Assembly (NCBI RefSeq): GCF_002571385.2 | Contig: NW_019218459.1 | Span: 76,641 to 140,640, forward strand | Direction: 5' to 3' | DNA from: Stylophora pistillata | Lineage: Eukaryota | DNA length: 64,000 nucleotides | Shown here: in pieces, positions 10,520 through 19,500 of the stretch | Position numbering within the stretch: the first letter of the stretch is position 1 | How the letters are laid out: every line of letters begins with the position of its first letter | Program-made: the position numbers

Positions 10520-13500
10520 ACAAAGTTTCAGTGATACGTCTATAACTCCATAGCCCTCATAGTATTGAAAAGTTTATTGGAAAGATCAATTGAAGAAGTG
10601 TTTTGTTTAAGTTTTTGGGTTTTTGCAACCTTCACATTTGTCCACTCAAGCGTTGGTTGTTAGATTTAAATTAACCCTTTAATAATGATGATAATAATAA
10701 TAATAATAGTAAGGTTTTTATGAGCGCATTTAAGAATCTCAATGCGCTTACAGAGCATAATAAAAATAAAATATCACAATGATACTAACAGTCAGTAGTA
10801 CCTACACTAACAAAAATAGAGTTAAATGGGATAAAAACCTATGTAGTGTTTCACAATACTAAAAATAAAATTTCCGGAATAGAGGAATGTTTTAAGGGAA
10901 GATTTAAAAGACGAAAGAGAAGCTGCAGATTTAAAAGAATCAGGAAGAGTATTCCATAATGTAGGTGCACAGAAGGAGAACGCACGTTCACCGTATGTCA
11001 CAGAATTTATAGTGAGGCCAGTAAGAAGTGATTTTGGAAGATGAACGTAGAGTGCGTGGTGGATGATATTCTTGTAACAGGGACGACAAATAGGCCGGAG
11101 AAAGTCCATGAAGAATCTTAAAAGTAGTAAGAATAGCTTTAAACATTATACGTGATTCAACAGGCAGCCAATGTAGTTTTTGAAGAGCAGGTTTGATGTG
11201 ATCATATCGTTTAAATCCGGTAATAAGACGTGTTTTGAACTCTCTGGAGTTTGTCGAGTTCCCGTTTCGGTAAACCATAGAGGATACTGTTAAAGTAGTC
11301 CAGTCGTGATATTACTAGAGTACTGACTAATAGTTTTAAGGTTTTCATTAGTGAGGTATTTACGAATGCGCCCTATGGATCTGATGGCATTAGTTGCTTT
11401 CCTGCATGTCTCATTAATGTGGTATGTCAGTGTTAGATTTGTAAATTCTCCCTTCGGCTGCTTTCACATTTCCTTTTAAGTTAGTTACAAAAATTTGGTC
11501 TTAGATCGAGATGGCTACTTCTACCTGATAAGTTTGAGTATTCTCATTACCTGTTTGTGGGATGGTGTAGGGATATTATAGGGAAAAGTTAACTGTTAAT
11601 CACATCTGAGAGTTAAAGGGTTAAGAGGGAATAGAAACGTCATTAAAAAAATTAGTGATAATCTTCTGATCATCAAGTCAGATATTGTGGTTGAATAAGG
11701 ATTAAGTGATTTACTAGCTGTTTTTTTTTTCCCCTAGTTTTTCGGGAAAAAATGGAACGCAACTCAGCAAAGCAACTCAGTGATCTGGAGCAAATGCCCT
11801 CGGAAAAGAGCAACGAGAAAACCTTAATTTCAAATCTGGAGAATAATGCTGCCATTCGGGGCTTCATAATTCGAGGGAACTGTGGAGAAGGAAACTGCAT
11901 GTTCCACGCACTATCCAGACAGCTGAAAATTAAAAAGGATATCCAAATCTCTCATGGTGATTTGAGGGGAAAAATTGTCGAGTACCTTGAAAACCATCGT
12001 GAACTGGTAAGGGAAACTATTCAAAGATGATTTGGGATTTGAAAAAAAAATTATAATTTTCTGCACCTCAAAACCTCAAAATGGCTCTTTGGCTGACAAA
12101 AGAGTATTTAACTCCTTTTGCATGTTGGCTTGAATGGTGCCTTTTAAAAGAGATACGTTTTTTCCTTAGGTTGAAGCCGTAAAGAATATTCAGTAAGCAG
12201 TGAGTTCGCTCCTTAAAAAGAGCCTCCGTCTCCTATAACCCCCACCCCTTTTCCCCTTCGTCAGAAATGTTAAAAAAACGTACAGTCCAACCAGTATTTA
12301 GTGGCACTGTAATAACGGTCACCCTGTATTAAGCGGTCGGTTGTCAANTATTACTGACATTTGCAAATCTTCATTTTATCATTTGCGAAATATTAGCTAT
12401 ATCAGAAAATATCTTTCAGCGACCACTACTGAATTGCTGGTTCATATGTTTGTATCTTCGAAGCTGGATTACTGTAATTTCCTTTAGTATGGCCTACCAG
12501 CCTTCACTATAAATAAGCTACAACACGTCCAGAATGCCGCGGCGCGCCTCGTCACACTTACAAAAAAGCAAATAATTTAGGTGTACAGAAGGAGAACGCA
12601 CGTTCACCGTATGTCACAGAATTTATAGTGGGGACAGTTAGAAGTGATTTGGAAGATGAACGTAGAGTACGTGGTGGATGATATTCTTGTAACAGGGACG
12701 ACAAATAGGCCGGAGAAAGTCCATGAAGAATCTTAAAAGTAGTAAGAATAACTTTAAACATTATACATGATTCAACTGGCAGCCAGTGTAGTATTTGAAG
12801 AGCAAGTTTGATGTGATCATATTGTTTAAATCCGGTAATAAGACGTGCTGCAGTGTTTTGAACTCTCTGGAGTTTGTCGAGTTCCCGTTTCGGTAAACCA
12901 TAGAGGATACTGTTAAAGTAGTCCAGTCGTGATATTACTTGAGCACTGACTAATAGTTTAAGGTTTTCATTAGTGAGGTATTTACGAATGCGCCCTATGG
13001 ATCTGATAGCATTAGTTGCTTTCCTGCATGTCTCATTAATGTGGTATGTCAGTGTTAGATTTGTAAATTCTCCCTTCGGCTGCTTTCACATTCCTTTTAA
13101 GTTAGTTACAAGAATTTGGTCTTAGATCGAGATGGCTACTTCTACCTGATAAGTTTGAGTATTCTCATTACCTGTTTGTGGGATGGTGTAGGGATATTAT
13201 AGGGAGAGGTTAACTCTTAATCACATCTGAGAGTTAAAGGGTTAAGAGGGAATAGAAACGTCCTTTAAAAAAATTAGTGAAAATCTTCTGATCCTCAAGT
13301 CAGATATTGTGGTTGAATAAGGATTAAGTGATTTACTAGCTGTTTTTTGTTTCCCTAGTTTTTCGGGAAAAAATGGAACGCAACTCAGCAAAGCAACTCA
13401 GTGATCTGGAGCAAATGCCCTCGGAAAAGAGCAACGAGAAAACCTTAATTTCAAATCTGGAGAATAATGCTGCCATTCGGGGCTTCATAATTCGAGGGAA

Positions 13501-16500: not shown

Positions 16501-19500
16501 TTCTCCCAATTCGGACGAAATTTGATGGTATTTCAACTGATCAAAATTCTTCAGGACATCGAGCGATTTGATGTTGCTGCTGTTTTGGATGAGTGGGTCA
16601 AAAAAGGAAAGGTCAAGTAGTCCTAAGGCCTGATTAACATCAGAATTTTTATCCTGTAGATTATAAGAGTTTTTTTTTTTCGCTACAAAGATGTAACAGA
16701 AAGACGTTAACCAAACAAGATCTAAACCGATCCCTTAGAGGTCTTTGTGGAGAGTGAACTGAGCGAAAACGAAATGTATCAAAAGTGAAATAATACCCAA
16801 TGGTAAATCTGTCGATGAAAGTGACGTCAAATACTCATGAACGCGTTTTGAAGATTATCTCTCGGACTGAAAATCAGAAGAAGCACTGAAGAAACTCAAA
16901 GCACCTCTGGTGTCAGGTCTGCATGGTTATCGAACCCTGGCCACACCACAACCCTGGCCACACCACACTGTTGTGCCTCCAAAAACGAACTCCAAGGGAG
17001 GGATTAAGGAAGACAAGAGGCTATATTTTTTTCGTTGTCTCCTTTCTTTTCCTCTTTATCTTTGAACCACAGGCAACGAGCCGTACGTAGGAAATGGGCC
17101 TTACAATGCAAATAGTGTTGTCTGAAGGACTCTTTGGACGTAGTACGGTTTCCTGAATGGTGTATTTACATTCGTGCTTGACTAGGATTTTTCTTAATTA
17201 GTATTGCTTGGCAGAATCACAAGTGAGGTTGTTCATTTTATAAAATGAATCGTATGGTCATTGGACGTTGTACGCTTTGATGTGTTAAGTATTCTCCAGG
17301 CGCGTAGCGTCCTCTACGCATATACGCACGTGCGTACTTGAAGTGACCAGAAAAATTTGAAAACAATGTTGTGTTTGCGCCAAGTTTGCTCAAATTAAGG
17401 GCAAGACGCTTTGTTCTTTGCTTGTATTCACACAACTGTTTCAAACAAGAAGTAAAGAACGCAGTATATTCGCTCAGTTTACTTAGGTTTCTAGATCATA
17501 TGTACTTGTGCGTACTTGAAAAAATGACCACGCTACGCGCCTGTTTTCCTGATACCAAACAGTTCAGGCGGGGTTCTTAACGATTTGTATATCTTGGAAA
17601 AGAGGTACCAGAAATATTTCAAGTTTGTCATATCCAACCCGTGTCAATTTTGTCATCCTTGTTCTTGATTGTTCTTTTTCAGTTTTTGCTTACCTCTTTA
17701 GTGTTTGTCTACGGTAGTTAAAGGTTATCATAAGGTTTCGTCCAATTTTAAGGAAATGTTTTTATTATCGAATTTAAAACTGAGTCAAAATAATTGCGTG
17801 GTAGACGGCTTGACAGACTACTTTCGGGTTTTTGGTTTTTCACGCAGGCTAATATAGATGTAGCTCCTCTTTTAAAGGGATCTACCAAGGTTTTTGCATT
17901 AACTACGTACTTGCTGAGTGTTTTTCTGTTGTTGTTGTTGTTGTTGTTGTTGTTATTTTATTTAAACGTTAAGTGGCGCACTGGAGGACTGATCATTGCT
18001 AAATTAAGTCAATATGTGAAATGGTCATGTGTCTACGTAGAGGTCGTGAAAATCCCTTTTCCGCCCCCTCCCTCCCCTCTCCATCTTTCATCCCTTCCCT
18101 CCCCCCCTCCCCATCCTCCCCTCCCTTATTGAATCGTGTTACAGCCGATCAGCAGCCCGCATGGGAAGATTGTCGTGGACGGTTAAGAATTGTGAATTAG
18201 CAAACACATTCAAGTGAAGAGGGCGAAAGAGTAGTTGTAGACTTAAAACGTAAAAAGATAACTTAGCCAAGCTAAGTATTAGGTGTTAGAGAGACAAAAA
18301 TGTCTAGATGAAGTGTAGAATACTAAACTGGTAATTAGGGACGGAATGATTTTGTGATTAAATTATCAATTCATTGTTAAACAGCTTGGTTCATCATTGT
18401 TTGACTTGGTTATTAATAATTGCTTCATTTTTTAACTTAAAAATTTACAAAATACTTTATTTCTTTATTCAGTTTCAAAATCTCGAGCTTATTATTTCGA
18501 TTTAAAACCACAACCTCACTTTCTTTATGGTTGTAGGTTTTCATCGTCTCACGAGATTATTTTCCCTGTCTTGAAAAGCGCCAGCCTAGATTTAACCAAC
18601 TGGTATGATGGTAACGACAGCGGAGATGTACAATTTCTTCCTGAGCCTTTTATGTACGCATTTACTTCATATCTGAATTTCAACCCTCTAAGTTTTCATT
18701 TCTTTAAATTCAATCCCGAATCTCTTCCAACACGACAAAATTCTATTCTGAATTTATAGTTTCACTGTAGACTCATGCCCATAGTCCGCGGACCTCGCGA
18801 AAGTTTCTTCTACCAACGTCTGCATTTTTGCCTAATTGAATGAATACTCGTTATTGTGGTCTCAGTAATTTGGTGAGGGTACGAGCATTAAAACCGTTAT
18901 TGGCTTCGTTAATCGCGGCTGCTGTTTCAAGAATGATGCGAGCGACAAGGTGAAGGGGATCATGCGATGTCTTTCGCGCAATTTTTTTTTTGAGGGATTG
19001 CGAGTCATTCTTCGCAGAAAATGAACTGCCCACAATGCATTGTGGTTACTTAGAAAGCGCGCACATTTTCCAAAATGGCCGACGCACCCAACGAATTTCA
19101 ACTGGAACAACCACCTTCTGATGGAATTTCGTCCGTCAAATTCAGCCCTAATCCAGCTTCGTTTTTAGTGGTGTCATCATGGGATACAGTAAGGATCTCT
19201 CCCTTTGAATTAGCGACTTAAACGTTAAATTTCCGTGTTTCAGAATAGCGACTTCTTCCCGACATAAACCTTTTTAATTTTGAATTGATTGTTAAAGTTT
19301 CGTGCGACTTTGTTTCAGTCTGTTATCTACTTTAATTCTTCTACCATACTTCCAACAGACAGTCAGACTTTATGATGTCCACAACAACAACATGCGTCTT
19401 AAATATAATCACCCAAACGCGGTGCTAGACTGTTGTTTCCAAGATAGTGTGCATACTTACAGTGGAGGACTTGACAATACTCTGAAAGTGTAAGTAGTAA

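What the first reader, a model, noticed from the sequence alone, without database searches (positions are those of the whole stretch)
13359..16620. OTU + Death domain fusion architecture
Seen: exons splice in phase (0, then 1) from a complete OTU domain through a Q/S/P-rich linker to a DD. Known: vertebrate OTU DUBs carry UBA, UIM, ZnF or Tudor modules, not a DD. Inference: lineage-specific domain shuffling that targets a DUB to receptor or Myddosome-type complexes.
Basis: partly seen in the sequence, partly recalled or inferred. Interest (0 to 1): 0.7.

Follow-up and report, generated by a model that had tools for sequence, protein, structure and literature searches.

The report
Coral deubiquitinase fused to death domain
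A coral-like genome encodes an OTU-type ubiquitin-removing protease joined to a death domain, a real but uncharacterised gene family that probably plugs a ubiquitin eraser straight into death-domain signalling complexes.

Summary
Three exons (13359-13627, 14794-15070, 16052-16620, + strand) with canonical GT/AG borders and phases 0 then 1 encode the two halves of an OTU protease domain, with the catalytic Cys and His intact. A disordered Q/S/P-rich linker and a six-helix death domain (DD) follow.

A 675-aa database protein (P0004, about 96% identical) reads straight through both junctions. Its contig is too short to hold the introns.

Exon 1 opens at a phase-1 acceptor, and relatives in stony corals carry one to three more DDs ahead of the OTU. 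Those DD exons are not in the window. The stretch where they would lie holds single-N marks, a retroelement fragment and a duplicated copy of exon 1. A phase-compatible candidate first exon lies at 8500-9349.

The architecture is not unique. Named proteins with OTU+DD come from two stony corals and from amphioxus. The OTU tree needs at least four gains or losses of the fusion.

No paper found describes the fusion. The function (a DUB docked by DD-DD contacts) is inferred, not shown.

It is a new variant of a known kind, of moderate interest.

The parts
8500..9349 (+). Candidate first coding exon (283 codons plus 1 base; low-complexity N-terminal region with an internal MGNTHNKG). The donor GTAAGA at 9350 is in phase 1. 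Assignment is tentative.
   Evidence: The sequence and phase were read. The phase-1 donor fits the phase-1 acceptor at 13359. Local alignment to the pre-DD N-terminus of P0009 scores 84, against a shuffle mean of 49.8 and maximum of 82 (0 of 1000 shuffles reach it). For P0007, 1 of 1000 reach it. For P0008 it is not significant (202 of 1000). Pfam finds nothing. A search among longer proteins found nothing.
11738..12006 (+). Second copy of OTU exon 1, inside a 1.4-kb block (10956-12347) that repeats 12572-13968 and ends at a single N. It is either an unmerged contig end or haplotig, or a true tandem duplication.
   Evidence: One search gives 97.4% identity over 1401 nt, with the first copy ending at the N at 12348. 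The ORF translation is identical to exon 1. tblastn hits are.
13359..13627 (+). Exon 1: phase-1 acceptor, in-frame ATG at 13373, N-terminal half of the OTU domain with the Cys loop GEGNCMFHAL. The catalytic Cys codon is at 13517-13519.
   Evidence: OTU E 3.3e-6; 95.7% to P0004; Cys present in 77 of 77 ungapped rows; aligns to the OTUD3 Cys loop, E 0.3.
13628..14793 (+). Intron 1 (GT...AG, phase 0). It holds a 46-nt inverted repeat pair at 14014-14059 / 14347-14392.
   Evidence: P0004 reads HREL|PK across it.
14794..15070 (+). Exon 2: C-terminal half of the OTU domain (WGN loop, GHVFEYHYVSL). The catalytic His codon is at 15037-15039. The donor is in phase 1.
   Evidence: OTU E 6.7e-5; aligns to OTUD5 through the HY motif, E 0.047; His present in 103 of 103 ungapped rows.
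15071..16051 (+). Intron 2 (GT...AG, phase 1). The frame stays open into it until 15276, so a retained intron would give an OTU-only product.
   Evidence: P0004 reads EFTSG|RNCQ across it.
16052..16314 (+). Exon 3, first part: Q/S/P-rich linker, predicted disordered.
   Evidence: pLDDT is below 50 for most of residues 1-82 of the exon-3 model. The matching part of P0004 (487-568) is also below 50.
16315..16620 (+). Exon 3, second part: C-terminal death domain (a short lead-in helix plus six helices) and the stop codon TAG.
   Evidence: family HMM E 1.9e-20; invariant R..D and W of the last helix; best fold matches are death domains.
19057..24987 (+). Neighbouring BUB3-like WD40 gene. It is not part of the OTU-DD gene but marks the locus as syntenic with the Porites evermanni model P0007.
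   Evidence: tblastn of P0007 residues 699-1029 gives 11 pieces at 47.6-100% identity. One exon matches yeast BUB3 chains at E 9.5e-10.

Best explanation
The locus is a real protein-coding gene of an anthozoan, most likely a stony coral. It encodes an OTUD-type cysteine deubiquitinase domain tied by a disordered linker to a C-terminal death domain.

**Family and gene structure**
- It belongs to a coral family whose fuller form is N-terminal region - up to three DDs - OTU - linker - DD.
- In this window the N-terminal DD exons are missing. Either the assembly is broken there, or this copy has lost them in frame.

**Proposed working (inferred)**
- The DD, alone or with its N-terminal sisters, docks the enzyme by homotypic DD-DD contacts onto oligomeric death-fold platforms. 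Candidates are TNFR/p75/UNC5-like receptors, MyD88-IRAK-like assemblies or DD-NACHT sensors.
- The OTU domain then removes ubiquitin chains from platform components and tunes or shuts off signalling.
- This is A20-like logic, but the targeting is hard-wired by a death domain.

**Status**
- Shown here: the exon structure, the domains, the intact Cys and His, the folds, and the relatives.
- Inferred: DUB activity, DD-mediated recruitment, the partner, and the direction of regulation.
For: **Gene structure**
- Exon structure and phases.
- Per-exon Pfam OTU, OTU and Death.
- P0004 (675 aa, 96% identical to exon 3, E 2.6e-113) has a 2025-nt ORF on contigs of at most 2795 nt. It spans both junctions without introns. 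I infer it is mRNA-derived.

**Relatives**
- Six of the 16 hits carry precomputed OTU+Death Pfam domains.
- P0006-P0009 are DDn-OTU-DD by my HMMs and by Pfam for P0006, P0008 and P0009.
- Synteny with BUB3 matches the P. evermanni model P0007.

**Active site and folds**
- The catalytic Cys is present in 77 of 77, and the His in 103 of 103, ungapped rows of 107 OTU segments. Both are present in the window.
- In the P0004 model the OTU part has mostly high pLDDT. Its best PDB matches are OTUD3 (target TM 0.83), OTUD5 and OTUD1, while A20 appears only at rank 50.
- The exon-3 model gives a six-helix DD whose neighbours are UNC5H2, p75NTR, IRAK2, Pelle and RIPK1 DDs.

**Context**
- The same OTU clade is fused to Roc-COR, GT4-conflict, Mab-21, LRR and kinase modules.
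- The adaptor-plus-effector logic follows the 'EAD principle' in PMC8195603. I read passages only.
Against: - There are no transcript data from the window's own organism. P0004 differs by about 4% and carries three DDs that the window lacks.
- The Cys-loop acidic residue is not the usual Asp. The window has E at -3. Family members have E, K, S or N there, while the wider clade has D in 39 of 74 ungapped rows. The WGD loop reads WGN. Activity could therefore be altered.
- Pfam Death on the window exon alone is 21.3 bits, under the 22.6 cut-off.
- No canonical AATAAA follows the stop codon before the next gene.
Confidence: 0.55

Rival explanations
1. The enzyme is the effector arm of DD-bearing STAND/NLR sensors rather than a brake. 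Its DDs match the N-terminal DDs of DD-NACHT-TPR proteins. When the sensor oligomerises, the OTU protease is concentrated and switched on by proximity, as caspases are on apoptosomes. It then cleaves ubiquitin or Ub-like marks, or another substrate, as the output.
For: - The triple-DD module of P0004 aligns over residues 23-304 to Nematostella P0046 (E 1.4e-27). P0046 is DD-NACHT-TPR by Pfam and is named.
- Sister OTUs are fused to Roc-COR, GT4-conflict, Mab-21 and LRR modules, which are typical of immune or 'conflict' proteins.
- Passages of PMC8195603 describe the same adaptor on sensor and effector in bacteria.
Against: - The window copy lacks the triple DD.
- The C-terminal DD is a different DD type (F instead of W in helix 2).
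- No sensor gene lies beside it in the window.
- No binding evidence of any kind.
Confidence: 0.2
2. What the window shows is a damaged or misassembled copy. Either the true gene carries the three N-terminal DD exons, hidden or lost at the N marks and the duplicated block, or this is a 5'-truncated duplicate on its way to becoming a pseudogene. This rival concerns gene structure and can be true together with either functional reading.
For: - Exon 1 opens at a phase-1 acceptor, and the residues before the ATG (VFREK) match P0004.
- No + strand DD lies upstream in 13 kb.
- Both duplicated blocks have a first copy that ends at or within six bases of a single N.
- A retroelement-like ORF fragment lies in the gap region.
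Against: - All three exons are open, with canonical splice sites, and are about 96% identical to an expressed-looking relative.
- The candidate first exon's phase-1 donor would join the phase-1 acceptor in frame without any DD exon.
- An ATG in good context (A at -3, G at +4) sits at 13373.
Confidence: 0.35
3. The OTU domain is a pseudo-enzyme: a ubiquitin-binding scaffold that has lost catalysis, so the protein acts only as an adaptor.
For: The conserved Asp at -3 of the Cys loop is replaced (E in the window; K, S or N in relatives), and WGD reads WGN.
Against: - Cys and His are invariant across all ungapped rows.
- Glu474 (two residues before the His) is kept in 96 of 103 ungapped rows, and GH 470-471 in 99 of 104 each.
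- Glu is a conservative stand-in for Asp.
Confidence: 0.1
4. OTU and DD are two separate genes or products. The frame running past the exon-2 donor to a stop at 15276 is used, and the DD exon belongs to something else.
For: The ORF stays open 68 codons into intron 2. Database ORFs such as P0005 read into the equivalent intron.
Against: - P0004 joins them exactly at 15070/16052.
- OTU-linker-DD is kept in P0006-P0010.
- P0005 comes from a 4184-nt contig and looks like an unspliced ORF call.
Confidence: 0.03

Closest known systems
OTUD subfamily of OTU deubiquitinases (human OTUD3, OTUD5/DUBA, OTUD1; yeast Otu2)
   Same: - Papain-like OTU fold with the Cys loop G-N-C and the His box H-Y-x-S-L.
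- Best fold matches of the proxy model are OTUD3 (4bou, target TM 0.83), OTUD5 (3tmp) and OTUD1 (4bop).
- Weak direct sequence matches of exon 1 to OTUD3 and of exon 2 to OTUD5.
   Different: - From recall, those enzymes carry UIM, UBA or Tudor-like accessory modules and no death domain.
- Here the accessory modules are death domains.
- The Asp at -3 of the Cys loop is Glu.
A20/TNFAIP3 (OTU plus zinc fingers), the DUB that restrains TNFR/TLR signalling
   Same: It works alike in the proposed sense: an OTU protease brought to ubiquitin-dependent immune signalling platforms built on death-fold proteins. This is inference.
   Different: - Not a member. No zinc fingers were found by Pfam.
- The A20 OTU appears only at rank 50 in the fold search, with target TM 0.26.
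- Recruitment here would be by a DD within the same chain.
Uncharacterised coral proteins P0006-P0009 (P0007 is the Porites evermanni 'unnamed protein product') and Oculina patagonica LOC144659573 (P0010)
   Same: - The same OTU-linker-DD C-terminal module, at 35-62% identity per exon.
- P0007 shows the same gene order with BUB3.
   Different: - They have one to three DDs (P0006-P0009) or a COR-A domain (P0010) ahead of the OTU.
- The window has none of these upstream.
Branchiostoma lanceolatum CAH1271093.1 (P0129, OTU-Roc-COR-Death) and XP_066297025.1 (P0159, OTU-Death)
   Same: OTU and Death domains in one chain, both above the Pfam cut-offs.
   Different: Domain order and partners differ. 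Their OTUs sit in another well-supported clade of the OTU tree, so the fusion arose separately or was repeatedly lost (midpoint root only).
Effector-associated-domain (EAD) principle and bDLD3 death-like domains of bacterial conflict systems (PMC8195603)
   Same: A death-like adaptor is fused to an enzymatic effector. The N-terminal DDs of P0004 also match Pfam bDLD3 (E 1e-17).
   Different: That paper's listed effectors are TIR, caspase, trypsin, kinase and the like. 'OTU' occurs 0 times in its full text (search listing) and 'deubiquitin' 0 times in its main text. Its supplements were not seen.

Membership tests
OTU-like cysteine protease (Pfam PF02338) | Profile match above the curated cut-off | tested here: met
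   Exon 1 scores 28.1 bits and exon 2 scores 23.8 bits, against a cut-off of 23.3. Each exon was scanned alone. The joined domain was not scanned.
OTU-like cysteine protease (Pfam PF02338) | Catalytic Cys in the Cys loop and catalytic His in the His box | tested here: met
   GNC49MFHAL has its Cys codon at 13517-19, and EYH82YVSL its His codon at 15037-39. These columns are invariant in the ungapped rows: 77 of 77 for Cys and 103 of 103 for His.
OTU-like cysteine protease (Pfam PF02338) | Acidic third residue (Asp at -3 of the Cys in OTUD-type enzymes; this feature is recalled) | tested here: inconclusive
   The window has Glu. Relatives have E, K, S or N. The wider clade has D in 39 of 74 ungapped rows.
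OTU-like cysteine protease (Pfam PF02338) | OTU fold | tested here: met
   Tested by proxy only. The model of P0004 (93-96% identical to the window's exons) matches OTUD3 with target TM 0.83 and E 6.7e-6. The window's own OTU was not folded because its exons were not joined.
OTU-like cysteine protease (Pfam PF02338) | Isopeptidase activity on ubiquitin or Ub-like modifiers | not testable with these tools
   This needs a bench assay.
Death domain (Pfam PF00531, death-fold superfamily) | Profile match above the curated cut-off | tested here: inconclusive
   The window exon 3 scores 21.3 bits against a cut-off of 22.6. My own family HMM gives E 1.9e-20. P0004 as a whole scores 68 bits.
Death domain (Pfam PF00531, death-fold superfamily) | Six-helix antiparallel bundle nearest to DDs rather than CARD, PYD or DED | tested here: met
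   Six helices at residues 101-184 have block pLDDT of 93-96, with one block at 77. All 25 matches listed down to rank 32 are death-domain entries. The first PYD appears at rank 33 and the first DED at rank 44.
Death domain (Pfam PF00531, death-fold superfamily) | R-x-D at the start of the last helix and a conserved Trp (motifs as quoted in PMC8195603) | tested here: met
   ERFDVAAVLDEWV has R171, D173 and W181, which are invariant or nearly so in 20 sequences. The helix-2 Trp is Phe here (DDFR).
Death domain (Pfam PF00531, death-fold superfamily) | Homotypic DD-DD assembly | not testable with these tools
   No usable computational result was obtained (see Tried and rejected). This needs a binding assay.
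Coral (DD)n-OTU-linker-DD family (P0004, P0006-P0009) | OTU-linker-DD C-terminal module with family-level similarity | tested here: met
   Identity to P0004 is 93-96% and to P0005-P0009 is 35-64%, per exon.
Coral (DD)n-OTU-linker-DD family (P0004, P0006-P0009) | One to three death domains N-terminal of the OTU | tested here: not met
   No + strand DD lies upstream in the window. tblastn of P0004 residues 1-310 gives its best + strand hit at E 1.9. The six-frame HMM scan finds only the exon-3 DD on the + strand. N marks and a duplicated block lie in that stretch, so the absence may come from the assembly.
Coral (DD)n-OTU-linker-DD family (P0004, P0006-P0009) | Locus next to BUB3 (as in P0007) | tested here: met
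A20/TNFAIP3-type OTU | A20-type zinc fingers and an A20-like OTU | tested here: not met
   Pfam finds no zinc-finger family. The A20 OTU is rank 50 with target TM 0.26.

The most novel reading that the evidence does not exclude
The (DD)n-OTU-DD proteins are the dedicated ubiquitin-erasing output or brake of cnidarian DD-NACHT-TPR sensors. On this reading the bacterial 'same adaptor on sensor and effector' rule has an animal version, with a deubiquitinase as the recruited enzyme. The in-frame, one-DD-per-exon layout would let corals vary how many DDs each copy carries, and the window would hold a DD-less variant.
Probability: 0.15. Interest if true: 0.7.

Novelty: new variant of a known kind. 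Interest (0 to 1): 0.45.

Why it matters
Ubiquitin chains and death-fold oligomers are the two organising principles of animal innate-immune and cell-death signalling. In vertebrates the DUBs that control these platforms, such as A20, CYLD and OTULIN, reach them indirectly.

A family that welds an OTUD-type protease to death domains would be a natural experiment in direct targeting.
- It could show which early-animal death-domain platforms are ubiquitin-controlled.
- It gives a compact, testable reagent: OTU activity, chain preference and the DD partner.

It also adds a DUB to the catalogue of modules shuffled in the expanded immune repertoires of corals and amphioxus.

If it turns out to be merely one more shuffled DD protein with ordinary DUB activity, the gain is modest.

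Tried and rejected
- **DD self-association.** Complex prediction with three copies of the C-terminal DD (residues 86-188 of exon 3) returned 'no answer', scores 0.00 and 0.00, and the controls were not run. This is no evidence either way.
- **ESM Atlas.** A search with P0004 residues 320-675 gave no usable hit.
- **Candidate first exon.** The search for homologous proteins with exon 8500-9348 among longer proteins found none of 3664 candidates at E <= 0.01. Pfam also found nothing on it.
- **First architecture census.** Single-sequence phmmer seeds found only 6 OTU+DD proteins of 166 and missed P0010, P0129 and P0159. I replaced them with HMMs built from the hits and with Pfam.
- **N-terminal DDs in the window.** tblastn at E <= 50 and an HMM scan with --max gave nothing on the + strand. 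The minus-strand DD ORFs (1119-1466, 3227-3574) are only 24% identical to P0004's DD3, so I rejected them as inverted pieces of this gene.
- **Direct PDB sequence searches per exon.** These gave only weak hits: UNC5H2 DD at E 0.24, OTUD5 at E 0.047 and OTUD3 at E 0.3.
- **Literature.** Seven full-text searches returned no paper whose listed title or abstract start concerns an OTU-death-domain fusion. The hyphenated architecture names matched 0 papers. I opened two of the listed papers as passages only, and neither mentions it.
- A pattern made only of N was an error. I located the N positions by script instead.

Full report
**Scope and rules.** The window is AT-rich eukaryotic DNA, about 34-47% G+C, with spliced genes. 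I do not take it for human. Every named relative of the finding comes from a stony coral, a sea anemone, amphioxus or another marine invertebrate. For whole-protein analyses I used an unaltered database protein, P0004, which is 93-96% identical to the window's exons. Three single N characters lie in the window. I did not fill them or look them up.

**1. The observation**

Reading the sequence and translating each exon gives this structure:

| Exon | Coordinates | Borders | Phase |
|---|---|---|---|
| 1 | 13359-13627 | acceptor AG 13357-8, in-frame ATG 13373, donor GT 13628-9 | 255 nt from the ATG, donor in phase 0 |
| 2 | 14794-15070 | acceptor ...tttttag, donor GT 15071-2 | 277 nt, donor in phase 1 |
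| 3 | 16052-16620 | acceptor ...ttccag | ends in TAG |

- The split codon across intron 2 is G|GA.
- Pfam, run on each exon alone:
  - exon 1 gives OTU positions 2-43 of 128 (E 3.3e-6, 28.1 bits);
  - exon 2 gives OTU positions 52-100 (E 6.7e-5, 23.8 bits);
  - exon 3 gives Death positions 13-85 of 86 (E 3e-4, 21.3 bits), just under the 22.6-bit cut-off.
- The death domain (DD) is secured by two further tests.
  - An HMM I built from 248 DD segments of relatives scores the exon-3 frame at E 1.9e-20.
  - An AlphaFold model of exon 3, made with a 20-sequence alignment, shows a disordered first ~85 residues. These are the Q/S/P-rich linker, with pLDDT below 50.
  - A six-helix bundle follows at residues 101-184, with block pLDDT mostly 93-96.
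  - Its best PDB fold matches are death domains. All 25 matches listed down to rank 32 are death-domain entries: UNC5H2, p75NTR, IRAK2 of the Myddosome, Pelle, RIPK1 and MyD88. Target-normalised TM is 0.73-0.80 for the top six. E-values are weak (0.02-0.1) and no match reaches E <= 0.001.
- The catalytic Cys (GEGNC49MFHAL, codon 13517-19) and His (EYH82YVSL, codon 15037-39) are both present.

**2. Evidence for the splice junctions**

- A search with exon 3 among longer proteins found 2 proteins among 363 candidates.
- P0004 (675 aa, E 2.6e-113, 96% identity) reads ...HREL|PKAGDL... and ...EFTSG|RNCQ..., exactly across both proposed junctions.
- Its 2025-nt ORF sits on contigs of at most 2795 nt. 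The window's introns alone are 1166 and 981 nt.
- I therefore infer that P0004 derives from spliced RNA of the same or a closely related species.
- This is indirect support. No transcript data from the window's own organism were available.

**3. What the gene really is**

- P0004 has five domains: DD-DD-DD-OTU-linker-DD. Pfam gives Death at 68 bits in 4 stretches, bDLD3 at 64 bits and OTU at 48.7 bits.
- Exon 1 of the window begins at a phase-1 acceptor. The residues before the ATG (VFREK) match P0004's IVFREKMERN.
- The three N-terminal DDs of P0004 are not in the window.
  - tblastn of residues 1-310 at E <= 50 finds nothing credible on the + strand.
  - My DD HMM, run with all filters off, finds only the exon-3 DD on the + strand.
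- Relatives from a second search (16 of 3852 candidates at E <= 0.001) include six with precomputed OTU+Death domains. Their architectures by my HMMs and Pfam:
  - P0006: DD-DD-OTU-DD, the first DD partial;
  - P0007, P0008 and P0009: DD x3-OTU-DD;
  - P0010 (Oculina patagonica): COR-A-OTU-DD.
- P0007 (Porites evermanni) is a gene model fused at its C-terminus to a WD40 protein.
  - That part maps to window 19057-24987 (+) in 11 pieces at 47.6-100% identity.
  - One exon matches yeast BUB3 at E 9.5e-10.
  - The order OTU-DD then BUB3 is thus shared, although the OTU-DD part is only 35-45% identical. This is a fast-evolving gene beside a slow one.

**4. The 5' end**

- Upstream on the + strand, an ORF at 8500-9378 has a strong donor (AAAAG|GTAAGA... 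read as exon end 9349, GT at 9350) in phase 1. It would join the phase-1 acceptor at 13359 in frame.
- Similarity of its translation to the pre-DD N-terminal regions of relatives:

| Relative | Result |
|---|---|
| P0009 | score 84; 0 of 1000 shuffles reach it (maximum 82) |
| P0007 | 1 of 1000 shuffles reach the observed score |
| P0008 | 202 of 1000 reach it; not significant |

- It shares with P0007-P0009 a motif S-x-P-P-x-x-Q/T-x-x-x-ES-x-x-P just before the point where their first DD begins.
- Like P0008 and P0009, it contains MGNxHxKG. There that motif is at the N-terminus; here it is at residue 12.
- No Pfam family matches it, and no longer relative was found. This assignment is tentative.
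- Between 9350 and 13358 lie two single N marks, a retroelement-like ORF fragment on the minus strand, and a 1.4-kb block (10956-12347) that repeats 12572-13968 at 97.4% and ends exactly at an N.
- That block holds a second copy of exon 1 (11738-12006).
- A second pair (680-2781 and 2788-4895, 99.7%) behaves likewise: its first copy ends six bases before an N.
- These look like unmerged contig ends. So the missing DD exons may be an assembly matter, or this copy may truly lack them.
- Short database ORFs each match exactly one DD of P0004, for example residues 5-103, 93-204 and 206-304. This fits one DD per exon (inference), which would make in-frame gain and loss of DDs easy.

**5. The enzyme**

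- In 107 OTU segments from the relatives, the Cys is present in 77 of 77 ungapped rows and the His in 103 of 103.
- The residue at -3 of the Cys is the usual Asp in 39 of 74 ungapped rows. It is Glu in the window and P0004, and E, K, S or N in the DD-bearing coral family. The WGD loop reads WGN.
- The model of P0004 has mean pLDDT 81, with the OTU part mostly 80-95 and the linker 487-568 below 50.
- Its best matches are OTUD3 (target TM 0.83, E 6.7e-6), OTUD5/DUBA, OTUD1 and yeast Otu2. Wolbachia and nairovirus OTUs follow, and A20 appears only at rank 50.
- So this is an OTUD-type domain that is probably active, though its activity is untested.

**6. How widespread the architecture is**

- The exhaustive search with P0004 found 1726 proteins at E <= 0.001, and I saw the best 150.
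- Among all 166 fetched proteins, my HMMs find OTU and DD together in nine: P0004-P0010, P0129 and P0159.
- Pfam confirms two Branchiostoma lanceolatum proteins:
  - P0129 is OTU-Roc-COR-A-Death (CAH1271093.1);
  - P0159 is OTU-Death (XP_066297025.1).
- I ran a Pfam census of 54 long proteins. These were P0004 plus the 53 of 96 'OTU-only' proteins that are at least 295 aa:

| Pfam family | Members (of 54) |
|---|---|
| OTU | 53 |
| COR-A | 7 |
| Roc | 7 |
| GT4-conflict | 6 |
| LRR_8 | 5 |
| rve | 5 |
| Mab-21_C | 4 |
| Death | 4 |

- I built a maximum-likelihood tree of 69 OTU domains. I dropped 35 segments shorter than 130 aa and 3 redundant ones, so P0005 is out.
  - The coral sequences form one clade of 22 rows with support 100/99. 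All 11 rows there that carry a source name are stony corals.
  - The DDn-OTU-DD forms branch at its base.
  - The two amphioxus proteins sit in another clade (96/92).
  - The label 'OTU+DD' needs at least 4 changes on well-supported branches.
  - The root is at the midpoint only, and partial proteins may hide domains.
- The fusion is therefore recurrent. It is not unique to one lineage, and it is uncharacterised everywhere I found it.

**7. Mechanism**

- Shown: the domains, the folds, the intact catalytic dyad, and the modular family.
- Inferred: the DD or DDs recruit the protease by homotypic contacts to oligomeric death-fold platforms, where it trims ubiquitin from components.
- This works like A20 in outline, but the protein is not a member of the A20 family.
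- An alternative is the effector reading.
  - The triple-DD module of the family aligns to Nematostella P0046 (E 1.4e-27), which is DD-NACHT-TPR.
  - That would mirror the rule of 'same adaptor on sensor and effector' described for bacterial systems in PMC8195603. I read passages only.
  - 'OTU' occurs 0 times in that paper's full text and 'deubiquitin' 0 times in its main text. Its source-data supplements, which list architectures, were not available to me.

**8. Literature**

- I ran seven full-text searches.
- Judged from the listings (titles and abstract starts), none of the papers returned concerns an OTU-death-domain fusion. The hyphenated architecture names matched 0 papers.
- I read passages of two of them, PMC8195603 and PMC3482391. 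Neither mentions such a fusion.
- Subscription journals and supplementary files lie outside what I could see.

**9. Verdict**

- The feature is real and correctly described, but it is the 3' two-thirds of a larger, modular gene.
- It is a new variant of known kinds (OTUD-type DUB, death-domain adaptor). It is present but unstudied in public coral and amphioxus proteomes.
- Interest is moderate (0.45). Shuffled death domains are expected in these genomes, yet a DUB wired directly to death domains is a neat and readily testable case.

Noticed in passing
window 680-2781 vs 2788-4895; 10956-12347 vs 12572-13968: Two near-identical tandem blocks (99.7% and 97.4%). The first copy of one ends exactly at a single N, and that of the other six bases before one. 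They look like unmerged contig ends or haplotigs left at scaffold joins. The second pair duplicates OTU exon 1.
   Followed up: partly
window 1119-1466 and 3227-3574 (-), with 4435-5760 (-): Another death-domain gene lies on the opposite strand. It has a full-length DD ORF (own HMM E 1.9e-17; Pfam Death E 0.0018), present twice because of the duplicated block. Downstream of it in transcript terms is a 441-codon S/G/T/A-rich low-complexity ORF. The DD is only 24% identical to P0004's DDs.
   Followed up: partly
window 19057-24987 (+): A BUB3-like WD40 gene lies directly downstream on the same strand. The Porites evermanni database model P0007 fuses its OTU-DD gene to this BUB3 homologue, probably through gene-prediction read-through.
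   Followed up: partly
window 16621-19878 (+): There is no canonical AATAAA on the + strand between the OTU-DD stop codon and the first exons of the BUB3-like gene. The polyadenylation signal of the OTU-DD gene is not obvious.
   Followed up: no
window 14014-14059 / 14347-14392: A 46-nt inverted repeat pair (93% complementary, 287 nt apart) lies inside intron 1. It looks like a small inverted-repeat (MITE-like) element.
   Followed up: no
window 10822-11463 and 12558-13085 (-): ORF fragments with motifs that I recall from the C-terminal part of non-LTR retrotransposon ORF2 proteins (LDYFNSILYGLP..., LHWLPV...). They lie in the putative first intron. Pfam gave no hit on the one fragment I scanned, 12561-13085.
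   Followed up: no
window 50963-55666 (-): Very long ORFs (1292 and 239 codons) consist of IQ calmodulin-binding repeats (Pfam IQ E 7.3e-23 on the shorter one). By recall they are ASPM-like.
   Followed up: no
relatives P0011, P0012, P0014, P0017, P0019, P0020, P0032, P0049: The same OTU clade is fused, in coral, bivalve and brittle-star proteins, to rhodopsin-type GPCR+LRR, GT4-conflict glycosyltransferase+Roc-COR, integrase (rve), Mab-21 and protein-kinase modules. Some of these may be merged gene models.
   Followed up: partly
window 8533-8556 (+); P0008 and P0009 N-termini: P0008 and P0009 start with MGNK.GKG, and the window's candidate first exon has MGNTHNKG at residue 12. By recall this fits the N-myristoylation pattern, which hints at membrane anchoring if translation starts there.
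   Followed up: no
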